From positions 36,044-100,043 of the forward strand of contig NZ_DATESC010000008.1 in the NCBI RefSeq assembly GCF_035271045.1: a DNA stretch of 64,000 nt. The letters run 5' to 3'. Under the pieces are notes generated by a model that was not told where the DNA came from, ran no database searches, and saw only the letters and a list, made by a program, of their open reading frames with translations. This DNA is from Marinospirillum sp. GTDB taxonomy: Bacteria > Pseudomonadota > Gammaproteobacteria > Pseudomonadales > Halomonadaceae. Position 1 is the first letter of the stretch; each line of letters begins with the position of its first letter. Positions 54,035-63,774 of the stretch are shown here, piece after piece. The translations under genes and the position numbers were made by a program.

Positions 54035-54067
54035 GAAAAATTGCCTAGCAGCAGTGCCTTGTTAGCT
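54035..54067 (-). mobile_element. Possible truncated integron attC site (left half only) overlapping the methyltransferase stop codon
   Basis: Minus strand AGC-TAAC-AAGGCACTGCTGCTAGGCAATTTTTC; inverse-core-like ...TAAC on the stop codon followed by AAGGCACTGC; no complementary right arm found. Confidence 0.4.
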
Positions 54068-55249
54068 CTTGTTGATTTGTTCGGCTATAAGCAAGGCAGG
54101 TGATAGAACAACCTCCATACCATCAAAATTAATTACAGCATCAAATAAATTTTCATTATTTGATGTTTTTATTAAAAATGATTTTTTAGATTTTCTTGTC
54201 TTCATTGCTTTACTCAAGAAAGACGCTGCCTGCTCCAAGGATTCTCCTTTCTTCTGTACTCTAACTAGTATCGGAGACCCTTCAAACTGCTCAACTAATA
54301 TCGCATCTATCCCCTTATTTCTTTGCACTGGATTAAAGTTTATATCTTGTAGGTAGCTAAGAGCATCAACATCAGCATTTAAGTATGATTCACGCCCTTT
54401 CTTAAGAAGGTTAGATTCTGTTTTAATAGGATTGGCTAAGCGTTCTTTACTAAGCTCAACAGCATCTAGGGATTCATCAATTCCAATGTAGTTTCTATTA
54501 AGAAGCGTTGCAGCAACACATGTAGTTCCGCTACCACAAAAAGGATCAAGAACAATGTCTTCTTCTGAAGTTACAAGTTCTATTATCTGCTCTAAAAGTA
54601 AGAGAGGTTTTTGAGTTGGATAACCTACCCTTTCTTTTGCCTTTGGATTTAAGTAAGGAATATCCCAAACATCACTTAATGGGACTCCTTTTTTTTTATC
54701 TCCATTTTTCACTTCTCCAGAGCAGTCCCTTTCATATATGGTTTTATTGTTTTTATCCCTAGCTCTACGCTGAAGAATTTGATCTATATTTGTTGTTTCA
54801 GAGTAAGGTTTATAAATAGTGTTAAATTTAAAATCCTTACTCTTTGAGTAAAAATATATATTTTGATGGTTTGGAAGAAGTCCTTTTTTTGAATTGGACC
54901 ACCTTTTATAAGACCATATAATTTCTGACTGAAAATTATTTTCACCAAAAACGTGATCTAATATTGCACGAATAATATGCTCTCCATTTTTGTCGCAATG
55001 AACAAAAATAGAGCCGCTATCTTTTAATAAAGAGTGCATTACTTCTATTCGAGCTTTAATAAACTCAGCATAACTTTGATTACTTCCCCAATTGTCACAA
55101 AAGCTAAATTTTTTAGTGCGCTCACGATTTTTTAAAGTATGCACTTTTTCAGTAAAAAATGGTGGGTCCAAATAAATCAAATCAATTGAATTACTCTCAA
55201 TTAACTTCATTTTATCTAAACAATCACCGTATAAAATATTATTAAGCAT
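54062..55249 (-). CDS. Type II amino-DNA methyltransferase (N6-A/N4-C, beta class), intact
   Basis: IYLDPPF near the N-terminus, YPTQKP, VLDPFCGSGTT near the end of the catalytic domain (beta order); extra ~110-aa C-terminal domain. Confidence 0.9.
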   Translation of the reverse strand: MLNNILYGDCLDKMKLIESNSIDLIYLDPPFFTEKVHTLKNRERTKKFSFCDNWGSNQSYAEFIKARIEVMHSLLKDSGSIFVHCDKNGEHIIRAILDHVFGENNFQSEIIWSYKRWSNSKKGLLPNHQNIYFYSKSKDFKFNTIYKPYSETTNIDQILQRRARDKNNKTIYERDCSGEVKNGDKKKGVPLSDVWDIPYLNPKAKERVGYPTQKPLLLLEQIIELVTSEEDIVLDPFCGSGTTCVAATLLNRNYIGIDESLDAVELSKERLANPIKTESNLLKKGRESYLNADVDALSYLQDINFNPVQRNKGIDAILVEQFEGSPILVRVQKKGESLEQAASFLSKAMKTRKSKKSFLIKTSNNENLFDAVINFDGMEVVLSPALLIAEQINKS

Positions 55250-56044
55250 TAGTTAGCTCTTTATCTCTATTTTCAGCAATTTCAGTTAAGATTGCTTTAA
55301 GATTGCTTTAAGATTATATCCGCTTAATTTTTCCAAGTAATCCCAAGCTTCATCACCAGCGTAATAATCACCACCTACACCAGCATAAATGGTTTTTAGT
55401 GTTTCTTGAATTTTAATAGCTTGCTCTCGTAGTGGGTAATAAAACATAACTCGAATAGGCTTGTAACCGTGAGACTTGATAGCTTGTACACGAGTATGCT
55501 CTTTCGTAATGTGATCACCATCCGTTGTAGCATCGCGCCATTTTATCTCTACAGCATCTGTACCATTAAGAAAATCAATCTCAAAATTTTTAGGCTTATC
55601 TCCAATAGTATTTTTTACTAGAACTTTACCACCTTCACTGTTTGAAAAAAACATACACATTGTGGCTGCTTCCTCTAAAAATGAACCTGCATAGTTATAC
55701 AGAAAGCGACCAATATTTTGATACTCATCAATAAGAATACCTTCCTCATGAGAGATTCATAAAACTCGATAAATCAGATAATGCGAGTTATCATCAGCCT
55801 TCATTTCTTCCTTACGAGCCACTGTTTTATTTTTTAGGTTGTCAGCATATTCATCAGCGAGTTTACCAATTTTATTTTTTAATAAGCTCAAGCAGCACCC
55901 TTCTGAAATTGCCTTATTAATGAGAGCGCGTTCATACTCATAAACCGCCTGAATTAGCTCTGCTTTTTTCTTCTTTTTAATATTAATTCCTAAAGAAACA
56001 CAATAAGCATTAAGCTCATCTATTTTCATTCTATCAACTTTCAT
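55242..56044 (-). pseudogene. ApaLI/XbaI-family type II restriction endonuclease, disrupted twice
   Basis: AGGAGG RBS before ATG 56044; continuous frame SHYLIYRVL*ISHEEG...YQNIGRFLYNYAGSFLEEA...FEIDFL...AVEIKWRDATTDGDH; in-frame TGA at 55757-55759; 11-bp duplication at 55286-55307 truncates the end (removing one copy gives ...KAILTEIAENRDKELTNA*, stop at 55242 overlapping the MTase start). Confidence 0.85.
55286..55315. repeat. 11-bp tandem duplication causing a frameshift
   Basis: TTAAGATTGCT at 55286-55296 and 55297-55307, then TTAAGATT. Confidence 0.92.
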
Positions 56045-56415
56045 AGCACCTCCTAAATTCACCTTACACTTGGTGGAAAAGCACCATAATGCCATAAAGA
56101 ATACTCTCTCAAACACTCAAAGAACATCGACTATTCAACCCCAATAAACCATTTTGGCTGCATAACTTCGAAGTCCAGCCGAATGTTTTCTGGCAAGGAA
56201 GCTGCTGAGTCTATAACCAATGACTTGCCATCAATGCGTTTAAATACCTAGGTTATTAGCTAGTGCTTTCATTTCTGAGTAAGTCTTGCCAAGAATATTG
56301 GCAACCGCTGCATAGTATTTCCCTTTTAACTCAACTTGCTAAGCCTTCTAAAACCTACTGGTCACTAAGCTAAAAATGTGTTTAAGTAGCAAGCTATTTA
56401 ACCGAACTAAGAGGT

Positions 56416-59504: not shown

Positions 59505-59573
59505 ATTTTAAGGCTAAACCAACAAGTGCAACTCATTAAGTTAGGATAGGTATCCTTAAACCACCCACTGAAT

Positions 59574-60728
59574 TTAGCCCATAGTTATACGCTGTTGTTG
59601 CTCTAAAGCGGCTTGTAATTCTTCTTTCAGGGCTTTTAAGTAAGCGTCAACTTCTGCTTGGGTTTCAATATAAGCGCCTTTCGTTTGCTGGTTAAAAATT
59701 TCAATGGGGTTAATGTGCGTCACGGTTTTTTCAGGTGTATTAACCGTTGAATTTGGTATAGCAAATAAATCATTTATGGCTGACTCAGGTTGTGTAAAAA
59801 CTGGCGGCGCTGTTTTAAAACAAGCAAAGTCTTCGGTCATAGGCTGGCCGCCAAGTTTTATTAATTCTTGGTTGCCTAACTGCTCGTTATTACGCACCCA
59901 CAAAGGGCACCACTGGTGTTTAAGGTTTTCATTAGCGCCTTCCCAAGTGCCGCCTTTAATACCTGATTTAACGACAAGAACTGTTTCAGACAAGGCATAA
60001 ATGGATTTATTTCTTGCCATAGCATTACCAACACTAAAGCCTGCTTCTGGGTAAAAGGCGCTAAGTAACAATAGTCTGTTGTCACGCAATCCTTCACGGT
60101 AAGCTTTGCTGGTTGATGTGCGTAATAAACTGTCTGCTAGCACGCCTATGCTTGAACCCCCTTCGTCTAAAGCCGTTAACATGGCTGTTTGGTCAATGCC
60201 CTTAGCGCCACCTGATACCACCACAAACCCTTGTGAAACCGCGAGTTTAGCTTTGTTTTGAGTAAAGCTTTCATCGTCTTGGGTAATCTCACGGGAGCCA
60301 ACAAAGCCAATAGCAGGCTGATTCAGTAGTGCTAAATTACCGATAGTGAAAAACACCGGCGGGCGATTATCACCCAGTTTTTCACGAATTTTTTGTGGGT
60401 AGTTAGCGCAGGCACGAGTAATTAGATTAACGCCTTGCTTAGTCCACTGCTCTAAGGCAAAAGCCATGCTGCCACCCCGTGCTAGTAATTTTTTTAACCG
60501 CTCGGTGGTTATTTCGTTTTTCTTAGCGCCAGGTTTAGGGTCTTGCCAGTGTGCTAAAACCTTTTCAGCACCTTTAAGTAGGCTAGCTGGCGAGTAGTTA
60601 TTCTGGTGCAGCCAAACCGCTAAACGTGAATATTGCAAAGGCGTTAGAGGCCTCACGTCTTTTACTTCACTTTTATTGAAGTAGCAGGTAAGCAATAAAA
60701 TGGCTTGGGCTGTTTCTGTGTAATGCAT
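59574..60728 (-). CDS. DprA/SMF-family protein (PsyrA/RqlI-type antitoxin) with atypical C-terminal tail
   Basis: ATG 60728; LLLT...PLTPLQYSRLA.WL, YPQKIREKLG..RPP, GFVGSR, VVSGGAKGID, AMARNKSIYALS, GGTWEGA; immediately downstream of a RecQ-like gene. Confidence 0.85.
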   Translation of the reverse strand: MHYTETAQAILLLTCYFNKSEVKDVRPLTPLQYSRLAVWLHQNNYSPASLLKGAEKVLAHWQDPKPGAKKNEITTERLKKLLARGGSMAFALEQWTKQGVNLITRACANYPQKIREKLGDNRPPVFFTIGNLALLNQPAIGFVGSREITQDDESFTQNKAKLAVSQGFVVVSGGAKGIDQTAMLTALDEGGSSIGVLADSLLRTSTSKAYREGLRDNRLLLLSAFYPEAGFSVGNAMARNKSIYALSETVLVVKSGIKGGTWEGANENLKHQWCPLWVRNNEQLGNQELIKLGGQPMTEDFACFKTAPPVFTQPESAINDLFAIPNSTVNTPEKTVTHINPIEIFNQQTKGAYIETQAEVDAYLKALKEELQAALEQQQRITMG

Positions 60729-60733
60729 TAATT

Positions 60734-62564
60734 TTAACCTTGTACGCTGGTACTGGTAAGGGTGACAGGGTAAACAGCCCCTGAGTTTGCACGCCGCAAA
60801 GAAGGAATATAGGTTAACCACCTAGGTTGTTGTGTAAAGGGTAGTGTGCGAATCATGGCAACCATAGGTGCGATTAGTTCATCACTAAAAGCATTGGCTT
60901 TTTTACCCTCAGCAACCAAGCTCCCCCAAGTACCATCACGCCAGCGCGATAAGGTCAGACCGGGTTCCGAAATAAGGTTGGTGTCTTGGTAAGGAAAACG
61001 GTAGGTTGCAAAAGCGGTTAAAGTCATGTCTTTTGATGCACCAAAGCGTTTTCTGGGCTGAATGGGTAGGTAGCGGTGTTTAGCAAATTCTTTAGCTGCT
61101 TCAGATAAATGCTCTGCTACGGCCGTGCTTAAACTTTCACTTGGTAGGCAATTAGCGCACTGACCGCAATCTTCAGCAAAGCTATCATCCAAGGCGTTGG
61201 CTAAAAACTTCATTAAACAAGCGGTGCTGCGGTGATAACTTAATAGCTGCAACCATTCATCTTTTTTAATGCTTGATAAGCGTGCAATGCGCTCATGGGG
61301 CAGGGTGTAGTCCGTACTGGTGCGATAATAGGTTGCCTTGTCTTTATAAATGGGTGCTGGATCAGCAACGCTTAAAAATTTAAGCACCTTGTCTATATTC
61401 GATGAAGAAAGGTTAGTGTGTTGCTCCATTTCAGCTTTTTTTAAGCCGTTTTCAGCATCTTCTAGCGCATTTAAAAGCTCAGTCACTTGTTCTGCACTAG
61501 GAAAAGCGGCTTGAATAAAATGGTTTTGGATGACTTCATCTTCATAACCCATCATTAAAATACCATAAGCATTATCAATGCCACGCCCAGCTCGCCCTAC
61601 TTGCTGGTAATACTCAATAATGTTGCCCGGTGCTTGATAATGAATAACAAAACCTATGTCGGGCTTGTCAAACCCCATACCCAGTGCAGAAGTGGCAACC
61701 AGCACTTTAAGGCGGTTGTGAATTAAGTCATCTTCCAAAGCTTGGCGTTCATTGTTATCAGCTTGGCCGTGGTAGGCTTTGGCGTCAATGCCGTGTTGCT
61801 TAAGCCAGTCGGCAACCAGTTCACAATCACGGGTTGTTTTGGTATACACAATGCCCGTGTGGGGTAACTTGGGTAGGGTATTAACCAGCCAGAGGCATTT
61901 GTGGAAGGGTTTGTAGGCGCAGTGATTCACGCATTAACGCCCCACGCAAGGTTTTCATTTCACTACCAATTTGTACCTGAATGTCGTTTATTACTCGATC
62001 ATTGGCAGTTGCTGTGGTCGCTAATACTGGCAGGTTTTTTGGCATGGCTTGGATGATGCCAACAATGCGCTGATAATCAGGTCGAAAATCATGCCCCCAA
62101 TCAGATATACAGTGCGCTTCATCAACAACAAATAAACCAATATTGGATAGAACTTTGCTTAAAACGTTTTGCACAAACCAATCATTGCCCAACTGCTCGG
62201 GTGAAATAATAATGGCATCGGCTTTTTGCTGAATAATTTGCTGTTCGTTGTACTGGCGCTCGGTTTTGTCTAATGATGAGTTAATAGTGATGACATTTAA
62301 CCCAAGCTTAGCAGCGCTAATAACCTGGTTACGCATCAGTGCTATCAAGGGCGAAATAATAATGGTAGGGCCTTTGCCTTGCTCTCGTAGCAATATAGTT
62401 GAAATAAAGTACACCGCACTTTTACCCCAACCAGTTTTCTGTACAACCAGCATTTTGCTGCTATTGGTGACTAGCTTATTAATTGATTCATATTGCCCAT
62501 CATGAAAACTGGCTAATGGGTTGTTGGTCATTTGCTGTAAACATTGCCTAGCTTTATTTTGCAT
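60734..62564 (-). pseudogene. RecQ-like helicase (PsyrT/RqlH-type toxin), frameshifted and lacking the PRTase core
   Basis: 5' part 61881-62564: QKTGWGKS, VDEAHCISDWGHDFRPDY, TTATA; frame change at ~61890; 3' part: TGIVY, TSALGMGFDKPD, YYQQVGRAGR, C...CGQCANC; ends IPSLRR-ANSGAVYP with no VDD motif. Confidence 0.85.
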
Positions 62565-62829
62565 ACTGCTCTCCTTAGCGATTAAAAATTCAACTCTTTT
62601 TTAAACCTGCTAGCTTAGCTAGGTTATTTTTCTGTATCCTCTTAGTCTAGCTGGTAGATGTTCACTTAAAAAGCATTAAAAAAGTATAGCCACGCTTCTC
62701 AAGAGGGTTGACGACCGCTGCAAGCCCTCTAATAACCACTGTTGGAAAAAAGTTTAGGTTATAGTCATAATGCTTGCCGTAAATCAGATAAAAAATGCTC
62801 TAAGCTAAAAAATTAAGGGACGCCAGCGT

Positions 62830-63774
62830 ATGTACTTAAGGATTCTAATCTTATTTTTAATTTCTCTGTCGCTCAATGCAGCAGAGATGGTTTGGGATAC
62901 TGATTCAACAAAAAAAGTAAAAAAAATAAGCGATAGTGAGTACCAGTCTGTTCTTGATAGTTACCTAAAAGCTAATACTCTTAAAACACAGCAACTACTA
63001 AACAAGCTAGGTTATTACTTGAATGATTTAGACGGAAATTATGGCCCTCCTACAGCTCATGCAATAAAAAGCTATCAGCGTGATAACTTAAAAATTCAAG
63101 ATGGCAAAGTAAGCAATAACTTGATTATTGCACTAGAAAAATCATATCAACAATATTTAAAAGAATTAAAAAACAATAAAAACCTTACCGTAGAAAACTA
63201 TAATACAGGGTTTGAAGCTGCTAAATCAGGTAATTACGAAAAAGCGGCACGGCTTTATAAGCTTAGTGCTGATCAAGGCTATGCAAGTGCACAAGTTAAC
63301 TTAGGTGTGCTGTACCGATATGGCCAAGGTGTAAAGCAAGATTACTATGAGGCCACACGGCTTTTTAAGCTTAGTGCGGATCAAGGCTATGCAAGGGCAC
63401 AAGTTAATTTAGGCTTGATGTATTACCATGGCCAAGGTGTAAAGCAAAACTACCAAGAAGCGGCACGGCTTTATAAGCTTAGTGCTGATCAAGGCTATGC
63501 AAGTGCACAAGTTAGTTTAGGCTGGATGTACCGATATGGGGAAGGTGTAAAGCAAGATTATCAAGAAGCAGCACGGCTTTATAAGCTTAGTGCTGATCAA
63601 GGCGATGCAACTGCACAATTTAATTTAGGCTGGATGTACCGATATGGCCAAGGTGTAAAGCAGAATAACCAAGAGGCGGCACGGCTTTATAAGCTTAGTG
63701 CTGATCAAGGCCATGCAGACGCAAAGAATAACCTTGAATTTTTATGTAAAGCCCAACCTTCTGTTTGTAGGTAA
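62830..63774 (+). CDS. Secreted protein with a peptidoglycan-binding-like domain and Sel1-like repeats
   Basis: Signal peptide; QQLLNKLGY...DGNYGPPTAHAIKSYQ...DG; five AARLYKLSADQG-type 36-aa repeats. Confidence 0.85.
   Translation: MYLRILILFLISLSLNAAEMVWDTDSTKKVKKISDSEYQSVLDSYLKANTLKTQQLLNKLGYYLNDLDGNYGPPTAHAIKSYQRDNLKIQDGKVSNNLIIALEKSYQQYLKELKNNKNLTVENYNTGFEAAKSGNYEKAARLYKLSADQGYASAQVNLGVLYRYGQGVKQDYYEATRLFKLSADQGYARAQVNLGLMYYHGQGVKQNYQEAARLYKLSADQGYASAQVSLGWMYRYGEGVKQDYQEAARLYKLSADQGDATAQFNLGWMYRYGQGVKQNNQEAARLYKLSADQGHADAKNNLEFLCKAQPSVCR
63241..63740. repeat. 108-bp coding tandem repeat (Sel1 units)
   Basis: Near-identical units starting at 63241, 63349, 63457, 63565 and 63673, each containing ...CACGGCTTT.TAAGCTTAGTGC.GATCAAGGC. 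Confidence 0.9.

What the first reader, a model, noticed from the sequence alone, without database searches (positions are those of the whole stretch)
59574..59735. DprA-type antitoxin ends in a tail resembling the C-terminus of BREX BrxC
Seen: after the DprA core and a Pro/Thr linker the ORF ends PEKTVTHINPIEIFNQQTKGAYIETQAEVDAYLKALKEELQAALEQQQRITMG. Recalled knowledge: type I BREX BrxC ATPases end with a closely similar pattern (I.P.E....YLET..DVDA(F/Y)L..L...L..A(I/L)....RI.I), whereas RqlI/PsyrA proteins normally end in a helix-turn-helix. No other brx gene is in the window. Inference: either a large deletion fused psyrA to the last ~55 codons of brxC, leaving a fossil of a lost psyrTA-BREX island, or this is a recurrent DprA-BrxC-tail fusion that could physically link a PsyrTA module to BREX, which I do not know to be described.
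Basis: partly seen in the sequence, partly recalled or inferred. Interest (0 to 1): 0.7.

Follow-up and report, generated by a model that had tools for sequence, protein, structure and literature searches.

The report
PsyrA antitoxin carrying BrxC's dimerisation tail
A DprA-like antitoxin (PsyrA) has swapped its usual DNA-binding end for the small dimerisation module of the BREX protein BrxC; the swap arose once, in toxin-antitoxin cassettes lodged inside BREX operons, and the copy in this window is a relocated, half-decayed descendant in a genome without BREX.

Summary
The ORF at 59574-60728 (-) is a PsyrA/RqlI-type antitoxin. Its last ~50 residues are homologous to the extreme C-terminus of BrxC (hhalign 99.4%, E 3e-21, ungapped to the last residue). 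AlphaFold2 gives both the same strand-helix-helix-strand layout in identical register. A 2026 paper shows this BrxC module is its constitutive dimerisation domain.

The tail is not the ordinary PsyrA end. Of the 120 best homologues, 13 carry it and the full-length remainder end in a winged helix. Tail-bearers form one clade (support 0.997), a single 50%-identity cluster among 1.84 billion representatives.

That clade and its winged-helix sister clade sit between brxC and pglX of type I BREX operons, so the swap happened inside BREX. The tail is under purifying selection (dN/dS about 0.1-0.2).

The window copy is secondary:
- No BrxC or PglZ is found in this genome, and no BrxC in 13 species of the genus.
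- The toxin gene psyrT is dead (17-nt frameshift deletion plus a 249-nt deletion of the PRPP loop).

The most likely function is dimerisation of PsyrA. Pairing with BrxC is possible but untested.

This is a new variant of a known kind, of moderate interest.

The parts
59574..60728 (-). psyrA: DprA-like antitoxin, 384 aa plus stop, intact reading frame
   Evidence: ORF. PADLOC PsyrA E 1.1e-123. Pfam DNA_processg_A E 6.4e-40. AF2 mean pLDDT 87.4, with best PDB fold matches DprA 3uqz and ShosA 8zva. 94-96% identical to 384-aa homologues P0001 and P0002.
59574..59735 (-). BrxC-type C-terminal tail (BrxC_ab module; 53 codons plus stop). The predicted strand-helix-helix-strand occupies residues 336-383.
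   Evidence: PADLOC BrxC models hit at their C-termini. hhalign 99.4% against BrxC tails. AF2 elements E336-339, H341-348, H357-376, E380-383 match the BrxC tail model element for element when counted from the C-terminus. dN/dS 0.07-0.26 between lineages.
59736..59822 (-). Pro/Thr/Ser-rich disordered linker between the DprA core and the tail
   Evidence: AF2 pLDDT below 50 at residues 313-318 and 324-334. This region varies strongly in length and sequence among homologues.
59841..60446 (-). DprA Rossmann-fold core of PsyrA
   Evidence: Pfam PF02481 covers residues 126-327 of the 415-aa ORF, which is 95-296 of the 384-aa protein. AF2 pLDDT above 90.
60734..62564 (-). psyrT pseudogene (RecQ-like helicase plus PRTase toxin), split into two ORFs
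   Evidence: PADLOC PsyrT matches two ORFs, profile positions 5-221 and 228-589 of 689. Against the intact 698-aa psyrT of L015 (99.0% nt identity) there is a 17-nt deletion at codon 225 (window ~61891, frameshift). There is also a 249-nt in-frame deletion of codons 595-677 (window ~60799), flanked by the repeat TTGCGGCG, which removes the PRPP loop VLLLDDAIDSGWT.
59525..59573 (-). 3' edge of the transplanted psyrTA cassette
   Evidence: The 36 nt after the stop are shared with L008, L014, L015 and L017. This is the same length as the tail-to-pglX spacer in the BREX-embedded loci. Homology with L008 ends 49 nt after the stop, and the flanks differ beyond that.
62565..62829 (-). Upstream intergenic region of psyrT, containing a spacer related to the brxC-psyrT spacer of BREX-embedded loci
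   Evidence: GGTTTAAA...GCTAAGGAGAGCA..ATG in the window resembles GGTTTAAACAGCCAAGGAGAGCACCATG, which follows the brxC stop in L016 and L018. This is a weak resemblance read by eye, not a scored result.

Best explanation
The gene encodes a PsyrA/RqlI-type antitoxin: an N-terminal helical domain plus a DprA Rossmann core. These are the parts that, in characterised relatives, neutralise the PRTase toxin. Its ancestral, dispensable C-terminal winged helix has been replaced. After a disordered Pro/Thr linker it now carries a ~50-residue strand-helix-helix-strand module homologous to the terminal subdomain of the BREX ATPase BrxC. That subdomain is BrxC's constitutive, ATP-independent dimerisation domain.

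The replacement happened once, in a psyrTA cassette that already lived between brxC and pglX of a type I BREX operon. It probably arose by recombination that joined the low-complexity linker of psyrA to a copy of the brxC 3' end. The brxC 3' end is a recurrent rearrangement junction in these operons.

The module has since been kept by selection on the protein. Its most likely role is to dimerise PsyrA on its own. In BREX-embedded members it might additionally pair with BrxC.

The window copy is a secondary transplant of the whole inter-brxC/pglX cassette into a BREX-free Marinospirillum-like genome. There the toxin gene has been destroyed, leaving an orphan antitoxin.

Shown here: homology, fold prediction, single origin, BREX context, selection, decay of psyrT. 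Inferred: the recombination route and the dimerisation function.

The confidence of 0.65 is for the whole statement. I put homology, single origin inside BREX and decay of the window copy at about 0.9, and self-dimerisation as the tail's function at about 0.6.
For: Homology:
- PADLOC BrxC models match at their C-termini.
- hhalign gives 99.4%, E 2.9e-21, ungapped to the last residue.
- Close homologues carry Pfam BrxC_ab hits.
- AF2 models of the PsyrA tail and of a BrxC tail have identical element boundaries counted from the C-terminus.

Function of the BrxC module:
- Deleting the last 80 residues turns dimeric BrxC into a monomer (PMC13326643).
- The terminal subdomain is described as two antiparallel strands separated by one or two helices (PMC12839542).

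The C-terminus of PsyrA is replaceable:
- RqlI 1-320, lacking the HTH, still neutralises RqlH (PMC4670107).
- The ShosA C-terminal truncation still neutralises its toxin (PMC11961720).

Single origin:
- On a core-only tree the 12 tail-bearers are monophyletic (support 0.997), sister to a winged-helix clade.
- Only one PsyrA cluster representative appears among 1.84 billion proteins searched with the tail profile.
- Only 3 GTDB species representatives carry the pattern.

BREX origin:
- L003 and L016 have brxC-psyrT-psyrA(tail)-pglX. L002 has the same with a retron between brxC and psyrT. L011 and L018 show pglX downstream.
- Sister winged-helix lineages L021, L023, L025, L048, L057 and L072 have brxC-psyrT-psyrA-pglX.
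- The published coordinates for Halomonas meridiana show the same order (PMC11232893).

Junction evidence:
- brxC 3' remnants lie upstream of psyrT in L002 (39 codons), L018 and L004 (last 6-7 codons plus spacer). Another lies between two pglX copies in L103.

Selection:
- Tail dN/dS is 0.07-0.26 between lineages.

Window copy:
- No BrxC or PglZ in the genome, and no BrxC in 13 species of the genus.
- psyrT carries two deletions relative to an intact copy that is 99% identical.
Against: - No experiment or multimer prediction shows that the PsyrA tail dimerises. The AF2 confidence for it in the monomer is only moderate (pLDDT 61-84).
- No donor BrxC lineage could be identified. The best identity is 42%, within the general BrxC tail spread. 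The recombination route is therefore a reconstruction.
- The short brxC remnants in L018 and L004 are only 6-7 codons. The window's spacer resemblance is weak.
- Contexts come mostly from short metagenomic contigs. None shows pglZ or brxL downstream of a tail-bearing locus, so whether those BREX systems are complete is unknown.
- Within the BREX-free window clade, tail dN/dS rises to 0.2-0.5, though on 1-5.5 substitutions per class. An invariant Asp is His in L014. The module may be relaxing there.
Confidence: 0.65

Rival explanations
1. Physical coupling to BREX. In BREX-embedded members the PsyrA tail pairs with the homologous dimerisation module of BrxC. This tethers the PsyrT-PsyrA pair to the BREX complex, so the toxin-antitoxin module acts as a guard or second layer that fires when BrxC or BREX is disturbed by a phage.
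For: - The tail is homologous to the very module that holds BrxC dimers together.
- Most lineages of the tail clade sit immediately next to brxC and pglX, apparently in one operon with short spacers.
- The fusion arose inside BREX.
Against: - The PsyrA tails form a long separate branch, only 20-42% identical to BrxC tails and 21-35% to the BrxC tail of the same locus.
- The last strand changed from basic RVRIR to RINIQ. This looks more like insulation from BrxC than pairing with it.
- The tail is retained with an intact psyrT in genomes of a genus without any BrxC.
- Winged-helix PsyrA lineages live in the same BREX position without such a tail.
Confidence: 0.2
2. Recent local fossil. In this genome a large deletion removed a BREX island and fused psyrA in frame to the last ~55 codons of brxC. 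On this reading the tail is a functionless remnant.
For: - The locus is visibly decaying. psyrT has two deletions and a neighbouring restriction gene is split.
- The cassette descends from BREX-embedded ancestors.
Against: - The identical architecture is found in 12 clusters down to 55% identity.
- In BREX loci brxC is upstream of psyrT, not downstream of psyrA, and keeps its own tail.
- Tail dN/dS is 0.07-0.26.
- No BrxC exists anywhere in the genus.
- Relatives at 96% identity have the same fusion with an intact psyrT.
Confidence: 0.02
3. Chance or convergent resemblance. The tail is a generic amphipathic helix flanked by short strands, unrelated to BrxC.
For: - The module is short (~50 aa).
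- Pairwise identity to BrxC tails is only 20-42%.
- The local Pfam copy returned nothing for the tail.
- Some repetitive Q/A-rich proteins also scored with the tail profile.
Against: - hhalign gives 99.4%, E 2.9e-21, over 52 ungapped columns with both ends at the C-terminus.
- Four independent BrxC models match at their last positions.
- The predicted secondary-structure register is identical.
- Both are preceded by the same kind of Pro-rich linker.
- The clade has a genomic origin next to brxC.
- The profile search retrieved mainly BrxC C-termini.
Confidence: 0.03
4. Instability element. The tail mainly sets the turnover of the antitoxin, as the C-terminus of ShosA does, so that transcription shut-off by a phage releases the toxin.
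For: In ShosA the C-terminal region confers instability and is dispensable for neutralisation (PMC11961720). The PsyrA C-terminus is likewise dispensable for neutralisation (PMC4670107).
Against: The ShosA element is a disordered loop. Here the module is predicted to be folded, is homologous to a stable dimerisation domain, and has 17 invariant positions. Nothing links BrxC tails to proteolysis.
Confidence: 0.07

Closest known systems
PsyrA / RqlI (DprA-like antitoxin of the PsyrTA = RqlHI system; PADLOC PDLC03927)
   Same: Full-length match to the PsyrA model over the N-terminal helical domain and the DprA core. It is encoded 5 nt downstream of a PsyrT RecQ-PRTase gene. Its fold matches DprA and ShosA.
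   Different: The C-terminal winged helix-turn-helix that ends ordinary PsyrA/RqlI is absent and replaced by a BrxC-type module. Here the partner toxin gene is a pseudogene.
BrxC C-terminal dimerisation subdomain (Pfam PF27153 BrxC_ab; residues 1147-1226 of Acinetobacter BrxC, PMC13326643)
   Same: Profile-profile homology over the whole module. Same position at the extreme C-terminus after a Pro-rich linker. Same predicted strand-helix-helix-strand layout in the same register.
   Different: It is attached to a 330-aa DprA-like protein instead of a 1200-aa AAA+ ATPase with a coiled coil. The PsyrA tails form a divergent branch with a neutral last strand (RINIQ, or RITMG in the window) instead of the basic RVRIR. 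Dimerisation has not been shown for it.
ShosA (DprA-like antitoxin of ShosTA, PDB 8zva)
   Same: Second-best structural match. It is a DprA-like antitoxin of a PRTase toxin whose C-terminal region is dispensable for neutralisation.
   Different: ShosA ends in a disordered loop that makes it unstable, not in a folded BrxC-type module. Its toxin lacks the RecQ helicase.
Accessory defence genes embedded in type I BREX operons (e.g. BrxU/GmrSD in pEFER, PMC8565348)
   Same: In its ancestral context psyrTA sits inside the operon between brxC and pglX. Other cassettes occupy the same site in related loci: PARIS-like, GmrSD-like, retron, SbcCD-like.
   Different: No other embedded accessory protein was found to carry a piece of a core BREX protein. 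The window copy is no longer embedded.

Membership tests
PsyrA / RqlI antitoxin | DprA Rossmann core preceded by a helical (SAM-like) N-terminal domain | tested here: met
   PADLOC PsyrA E 1.1e-123. Pfam PF02481 E 6.4e-40. The AF2 model matches DprA 3uqz and ShosA 8zva.
PsyrA / RqlI antitoxin | Encoded immediately downstream of a PsyrT/RqlH RecQ-like helicase-PRTase gene | tested here: met
   The psyrT stop is at 60734-60736 and the psyrA ATG at 60728. PsyrT model hits are E 8e-100 and 9e-125. The psyrT gene is, however, disrupted.
PsyrA / RqlI antitoxin | C-terminal winged helix-turn-helix | tested here: not met
   The end of the protein is the BrxC-type tail. Of the full-length homologues in the tree, 96 of 109 end in a winged-helix motif, as classified by a crude regular expression. 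This domain is dispensable for antitoxin activity (PMC4670107), so I still file the protein as a PsyrA variant.
PsyrA / RqlI antitoxin | Neutralises the toxicity of its PsyrT partner | not testable with these tools
   Needs co-expression assays. The window's partner is a pseudogene.
BrxC_ab domain (PF27153, BrxC terminal dimerisation subdomain) | Sequence match to BrxC C-terminal profiles | tested here: met
   PADLOC BrxC models: E 9.3e-7, 2.1e-5, 1.9e-4 and 5.4e-3, each at its C-terminus. hhalign 99.4%. Precomputed PF27153 hits on homologues at 59-94% identity. The local Pfam copy gave no hit, apparently because it lacks this model.
BrxC_ab domain (PF27153, BrxC terminal dimerisation subdomain) | Two antiparallel strands separated by one or two helices, at the extreme C-terminus after a flexible linker | tested here: met
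   AF2 gives E336-339, H341-348, H357-376, E380-383 of 384 for PsyrA. For the last 90 aa of L016 BrxC it gives E42-45, H47-54, H63-82, E86-89. Published description in PMC12839542. These are predictions, not solved structures.
BrxC_ab domain (PF27153, BrxC terminal dimerisation subdomain) | Mediates stable, ATP-independent dimerisation | not testable with these tools
   Shown for BrxC by truncation (PMC13326643). No multimer prediction or experiment was available for PsyrA.
BrxC (BREX AAA+ ATPase) | N-terminal ORC/Cdc6-type AAA+ ATPase, wHTH, alpha+beta domain and long coiled coil | tested here: not met
   Only positions 1134-1189 of the 1190-position BrxC model are matched. The rest of the protein is DprA-like.
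Type I BREX system | Presence of brxA, brxB, brxC, pglX, pglZ and brxL in the locus or genome | tested here: not met
   No BrxC beyond the PsyrA tail and no PglZ in the 2.5-Mb, 97.5%-complete genome. No BrxC in 13 species of the genus.

The most novel reading that the evidence does not exclude
In the BREX-embedded members of this clade the borrowed tail pairs with the homologous dimerisation module of BrxC. The PsyrT-PsyrA toxin-antitoxin pair would then be physically docked onto the BREX machine and serve as a built-in guard or abortive back-up that senses disturbance of BrxC. More generally, the brxC 3' end would serve both as the DNA junction at which accessory cassettes are swapped and as the source of a protein docking handle.
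Probability: 0.2. Interest if true: 0.8.

Novelty: new variant of a known kind. Interest (0 to 1): 0.55.

Why it matters
How accessory defence genes lodged inside BREX operons relate to the core machine is not known. Here a toxin-antitoxin module has taken over the exact piece of BrxC that a 2026 study showed to hold BrxC dimers together.

This gives a concrete, cheap test of physical coupling between an abortive-infection module and BREX: does the PsyrA tail bind itself, BrxC, or both? It also shows that psyrTA is a recurrent resident of the brxC-pglX gap. I found no paper in five full-text searches that comments on this, although the gene order is visible in one published table.

For this genome itself the element is a decaying orphan antitoxin of little functional weight.

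Tried and rejected
- Local Pfam scan of the tail at E up to 10 found nothing. The copy seems to lack PF27153.
- An exact DNA pattern of the tail-pglX spacer, searched in GTDB genomes to find an uninterrupted brxC-pglX ancestor, returned only the L016 contig itself.
- The search for a donor BrxC lineage found none. The best tail identity is 42% (L035), within the general BrxC spread, and the 50-aa tree is weak.
- Contexts of other tail hits from the representative search were uninformative. P0146 (unknown N-terminus plus tail) and P0135 (a 57-aa tail-only ORF) lie on contigs of 1 kb or less. Most short hits are BrxC C-terminal fragments.
- Foldseek of the BrxC tail model against the PDB gave no significant match, so there is no solved structure of this module.
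- The ungapped-slice dN/dS for the core is meaningless for pairs with indels (L002, L003, L004, L016). I used only the aligned pairs and the tail values.
- A metagenome scan added only two new contexts.
- The scan's notebook had nothing on a PsyrA-BrxC link.
- I considered an anti-BREX decoy role for the tail. I dropped it because the fusion lives inside BREX operons.
Full report
**1. What is in the window**

The minus-strand ORF 59574-60821 is real. Its 384-aa homologues, and the psyrT stop at 60734-60736, place the start at the ATG at 60728. The protein matches the PADLOC PsyrA model over almost its whole length (E 1.1e-123) and Pfam DNA_processg_A in the core (E 6.4e-40).

Upstream lies a PsyrT gene (RecQ-like helicase plus PRTase toxin) split into two ORFs.

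**2. Is the tail really BrxC-like?**

Yes, on four lines of evidence.

- The 53-aa tail alone hits four PADLOC BrxC models, each at its extreme C-terminus. The best is E 9.3e-7, positions 1143-1189 of 1190.
- A profile of ten PsyrA tails (A1) against a profile of 37 BrxC C-termini taken from fetched loci (A3) gives hhalign probability 99.4% and E 2.9e-21. The 52 aligned columns are ungapped and end at both C-termini.
- Close homologues carry a precomputed Pfam hit PF27153, named BrxC_ab in the context tables. The local Pfam copy gave nothing for the tail, apparently because it lacks that model.
- AlphaFold2 with a 69-sequence alignment gives a confident DprA-like body (mean pLDDT 87.4), a disordered linker (pLDDT below 50 at 313-318 and 324-334), and then E336-339, H341-348, H357-376, E380-383 at pLDDT 61-84. 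The last 90 residues of the L016 BrxC fold as E42-45, H47-54, H63-82, E86-89 at pLDDT 85-96. Counted from the C-terminus, the element boundaries are identical.

The body's best PDB matches are DprA (3uqz) and the antitoxin ShosA (8zva). The tail module has no solved relative.

**3. What the BrxC module does**

The terminal subdomain of BrxC has been described as two antiparallel strands separated by one or two helices at the end of the coiled coil, and likened to a hinge (PMC12839542).

Experimentally, full-length Acinetobacter BrxC is a dimer. Removing its last 80 residues makes it monomeric. The authors call this a constitutive, ATP-independent dimerisation motif (PMC13326643).

**4. Is it the ordinary PsyrA end?**

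No.

- Of the 120 best homologues, 13 (P0001-P0012 and the fragment P0097) carry the tail. The full-length remainder end in a winged-helix motif.
- On a tree built from the core only, the 12 full-length tail-bearers are monophyletic (support 0.997). Their sister is a winged-helix clade.
- A search of 1.84 billion cluster representatives with the tail profile found one PsyrA cluster. The other hits were BrxC C-termini and fragments, plus a few repetitive proteins and a few oddities on tiny contigs.
- Only three of about 185,000 GTDB species representatives carry the pattern.

**5. Where the fusion was born**

Tail-bearing psyrTA in BREX loci:

| Locus | Gene order |
|---|---|
| L003 | brxC - psyrT - psyrA(tail) - pglX |
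| L016 (Pseudomonas sp. MAG) | brxC - psyrT - psyrA(tail) - pglX |
| L002 | brxA - brxB - brxC - retron I-A - psyrT - psyrA(tail) - pglX |
| L011-13 | psyrA(tail) followed by pglX after the same 36-nt spacer |
| L018 | psyrA(tail) followed by pglX after the same 36-nt spacer |

The nearest winged-helix relatives are embedded in the same place. L021, L023 and L025 have brxR-brxA-brxB-brxC-psyrT-psyrA-pglX, with pglZ further downstream in L021 and L025 (L023's contig ends within the gene after psyrA). The genomes L048, L057 and L072 (Halomonas ventosae) show the same order. So do the published coordinates for Halomonas meridiana, where the arrangement is not commented on (PMC11232893).

So psyrTA was resident in the brxC-pglX gap before the tail was acquired. 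About half of the related gammaproteobacterial BREX loci have some 1-4 kb insert in that gap.

**6. How it probably arose (inference)**

The brxC 3' end recurs at rearrangement junctions.

- L002 holds a 39-codon BrxC-type tail remnant (72% identical to a BrxC tail) between the retron and psyrT. This is in addition to BrxC's own tail and the PsyrA tail.
- L018 and the BREX-less L004 keep the last 6-7 brxC codons and the spacer upstream of psyrT.
- L103 (Rhodobacter flavimaris) has brxC, pglX, a 26-codon tail remnant, and then a second pglX.

Both PsyrA and BrxC have Pro/Ala/Thr-rich linkers before their last domain. The loci of the tail clade also carry a different, split pglX. A crossover joining the psyrA linker to a brxC linker-tail-pglX segment would explain the architecture. 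No donor lineage could be named: identities to BrxC tails are 20-42%, whereas BrxC tails average 41% among themselves.

**7. Is the tail functional?**

Between lineages whose synonymous sites are near saturation, tail dN/dS is 0.07-0.26. The core gives 0.05-0.13 in the pairs that align without gaps. Seventeen of the 53 tail columns are invariant across proteins that are 55-62% identical overall. The tail is therefore a selected protein domain, not a scar.

The C-terminal HTH of RqlI is dispensable for neutralising RqlH. RqlI binds the toxic PRTase domain through its N-terminal parts (PMC4670107). ShosA behaves likewise (PMC11961720). The C-terminus was thus free to be exchanged.

The most economical function is dimerisation of PsyrA. 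Pairing with BrxC is possible. Against it:

- The PsyrA tails form a long separate branch.
- The basic last strand RVRIR of BrxC has become RINIQ.
- The tail persists, with an intact psyrT, in genomes lacking BREX.

**8. The window copy**

The genome (2.5 Mb, 97.5% complete) has no BrxC apart from this tail, and no PglZ. None of 13 species of the genus has a BrxC. By the title of L014 the genus is Marinospirillum. Two congeners carry the same gene at 96% identity. One of them, L015, has an intact 698-aa psyrT.

The window's psyrT is 99.0% identical to the L015 copy but has two lesions:

- a 17-nt deletion at codon 225, which shifts the frame;
- a 249-nt in-frame deletion of codons 595-677, flanked by the repeat TTGCGGCG, which removes the PRPP-binding loop of the toxic domain.

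The transplanted unit ends 36-49 nt after the psyrA stop. That is the length of the tail-pglX spacer in the BREX loci, and the downstream flanks differ among relatives. Within the tail clade the window lineage is nested among BREX-embedded lineages.

The copy is therefore a relocated cassette with a dead toxin and an intact orphan antitoxin. Two earlier first-reader notes on this genome, on the PRTase loss and on the disarmed modules, agree with this.

**9. Verdict**

- Observation: confirmed.
- Interpretation: the local-deletion fossil is rejected. The recurrent BREX-linked fusion is supported as a fact of sequence and context. Its proposed physical link to BREX is open, at about 0.2.
- Novelty: five full-text searches turned up no paper that mentions a PsyrA or DprA protein with a BrxC module, or that comments on psyrTA inside BREX.
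- Classification: a new variant of a known kind, of moderate interest, with an easy decisive experiment.

Noticed in passing
window 55286-56116 (-) and 54062-55249 (-): An ApaLI-like restriction endonuclease gene is split into two ORFs covering Pfam profile positions 2-42 and 83-187. The adjacent N6/N4 DNA methyltransferase gene is intact.
   Followed up: partly
L002 11314-13263 and 17039-18094; L003 7172-9136; L016 8257-10206: In the BREX loci of the tail clade, pglX is split. An N-terminal half of 649-654 aa matches PglX profile positions 1-623 of 1174. It is followed by an inserted SIR2-HerA pair (L002, L003) or a PDC-S22 gene (L016). In L002 a separate ORF then matches profile positions 619-929. 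Defence cassettes thus sit inside the methyltransferase gene itself.
   Followed up: partly
L002 4375-7566 (-) and 7755-7871 (+): A type I-A retron (RT, ATPase, HNH) is inserted between brxC and psyrT. It leaves a 39-codon duplicate of the brxC 3' end just upstream of psyrT, so this locus holds three tail copies.
   Followed up: partly
L103 3323-7001 (Rhodobacter flavimaris NZ_JAJUOS010000002): Two pglX genes lie in tandem after brxC. Between them is a 62-aa ORF whose end duplicates the last 26 codons of brxC and whose start resembles a PglZ N-terminus. This is a scar of module swapping at the brxC 3' end in an alphaproteobacterium.
   Followed up: partly
L028-L072, region between brxC end and pglX start: About half of the related gammaproteobacterial type I BREX loci carry 1-4 kb inserts between brxC and pglX. 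From ORF sizes and termini, without family searches on them, they look like AAA_15 plus DUF4435-like pairs, ~590-aa GmrSD-like proteins, PIN-type pairs with a ~485-aa protein, SbcCD-like pairs, a three-gene set of ~220+225+240 aa, and psyrTA.
   Followed up: partly
protein P0130 (163 aa): A BrxA-like N-terminus joined directly to a BrxC-type tail. It looks like the product of a deletion spanning brxA to the end of brxC in some metagenome.
   Followed up: no
window 62830-63774 (+): A Sel1-repeat protein with a signal peptide lies divergently upstream of psyrT. The same neighbour is present in L015, so the upstream flank of the cassette is conserved among congeners while the downstream flank is not.
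   Followed up: partly
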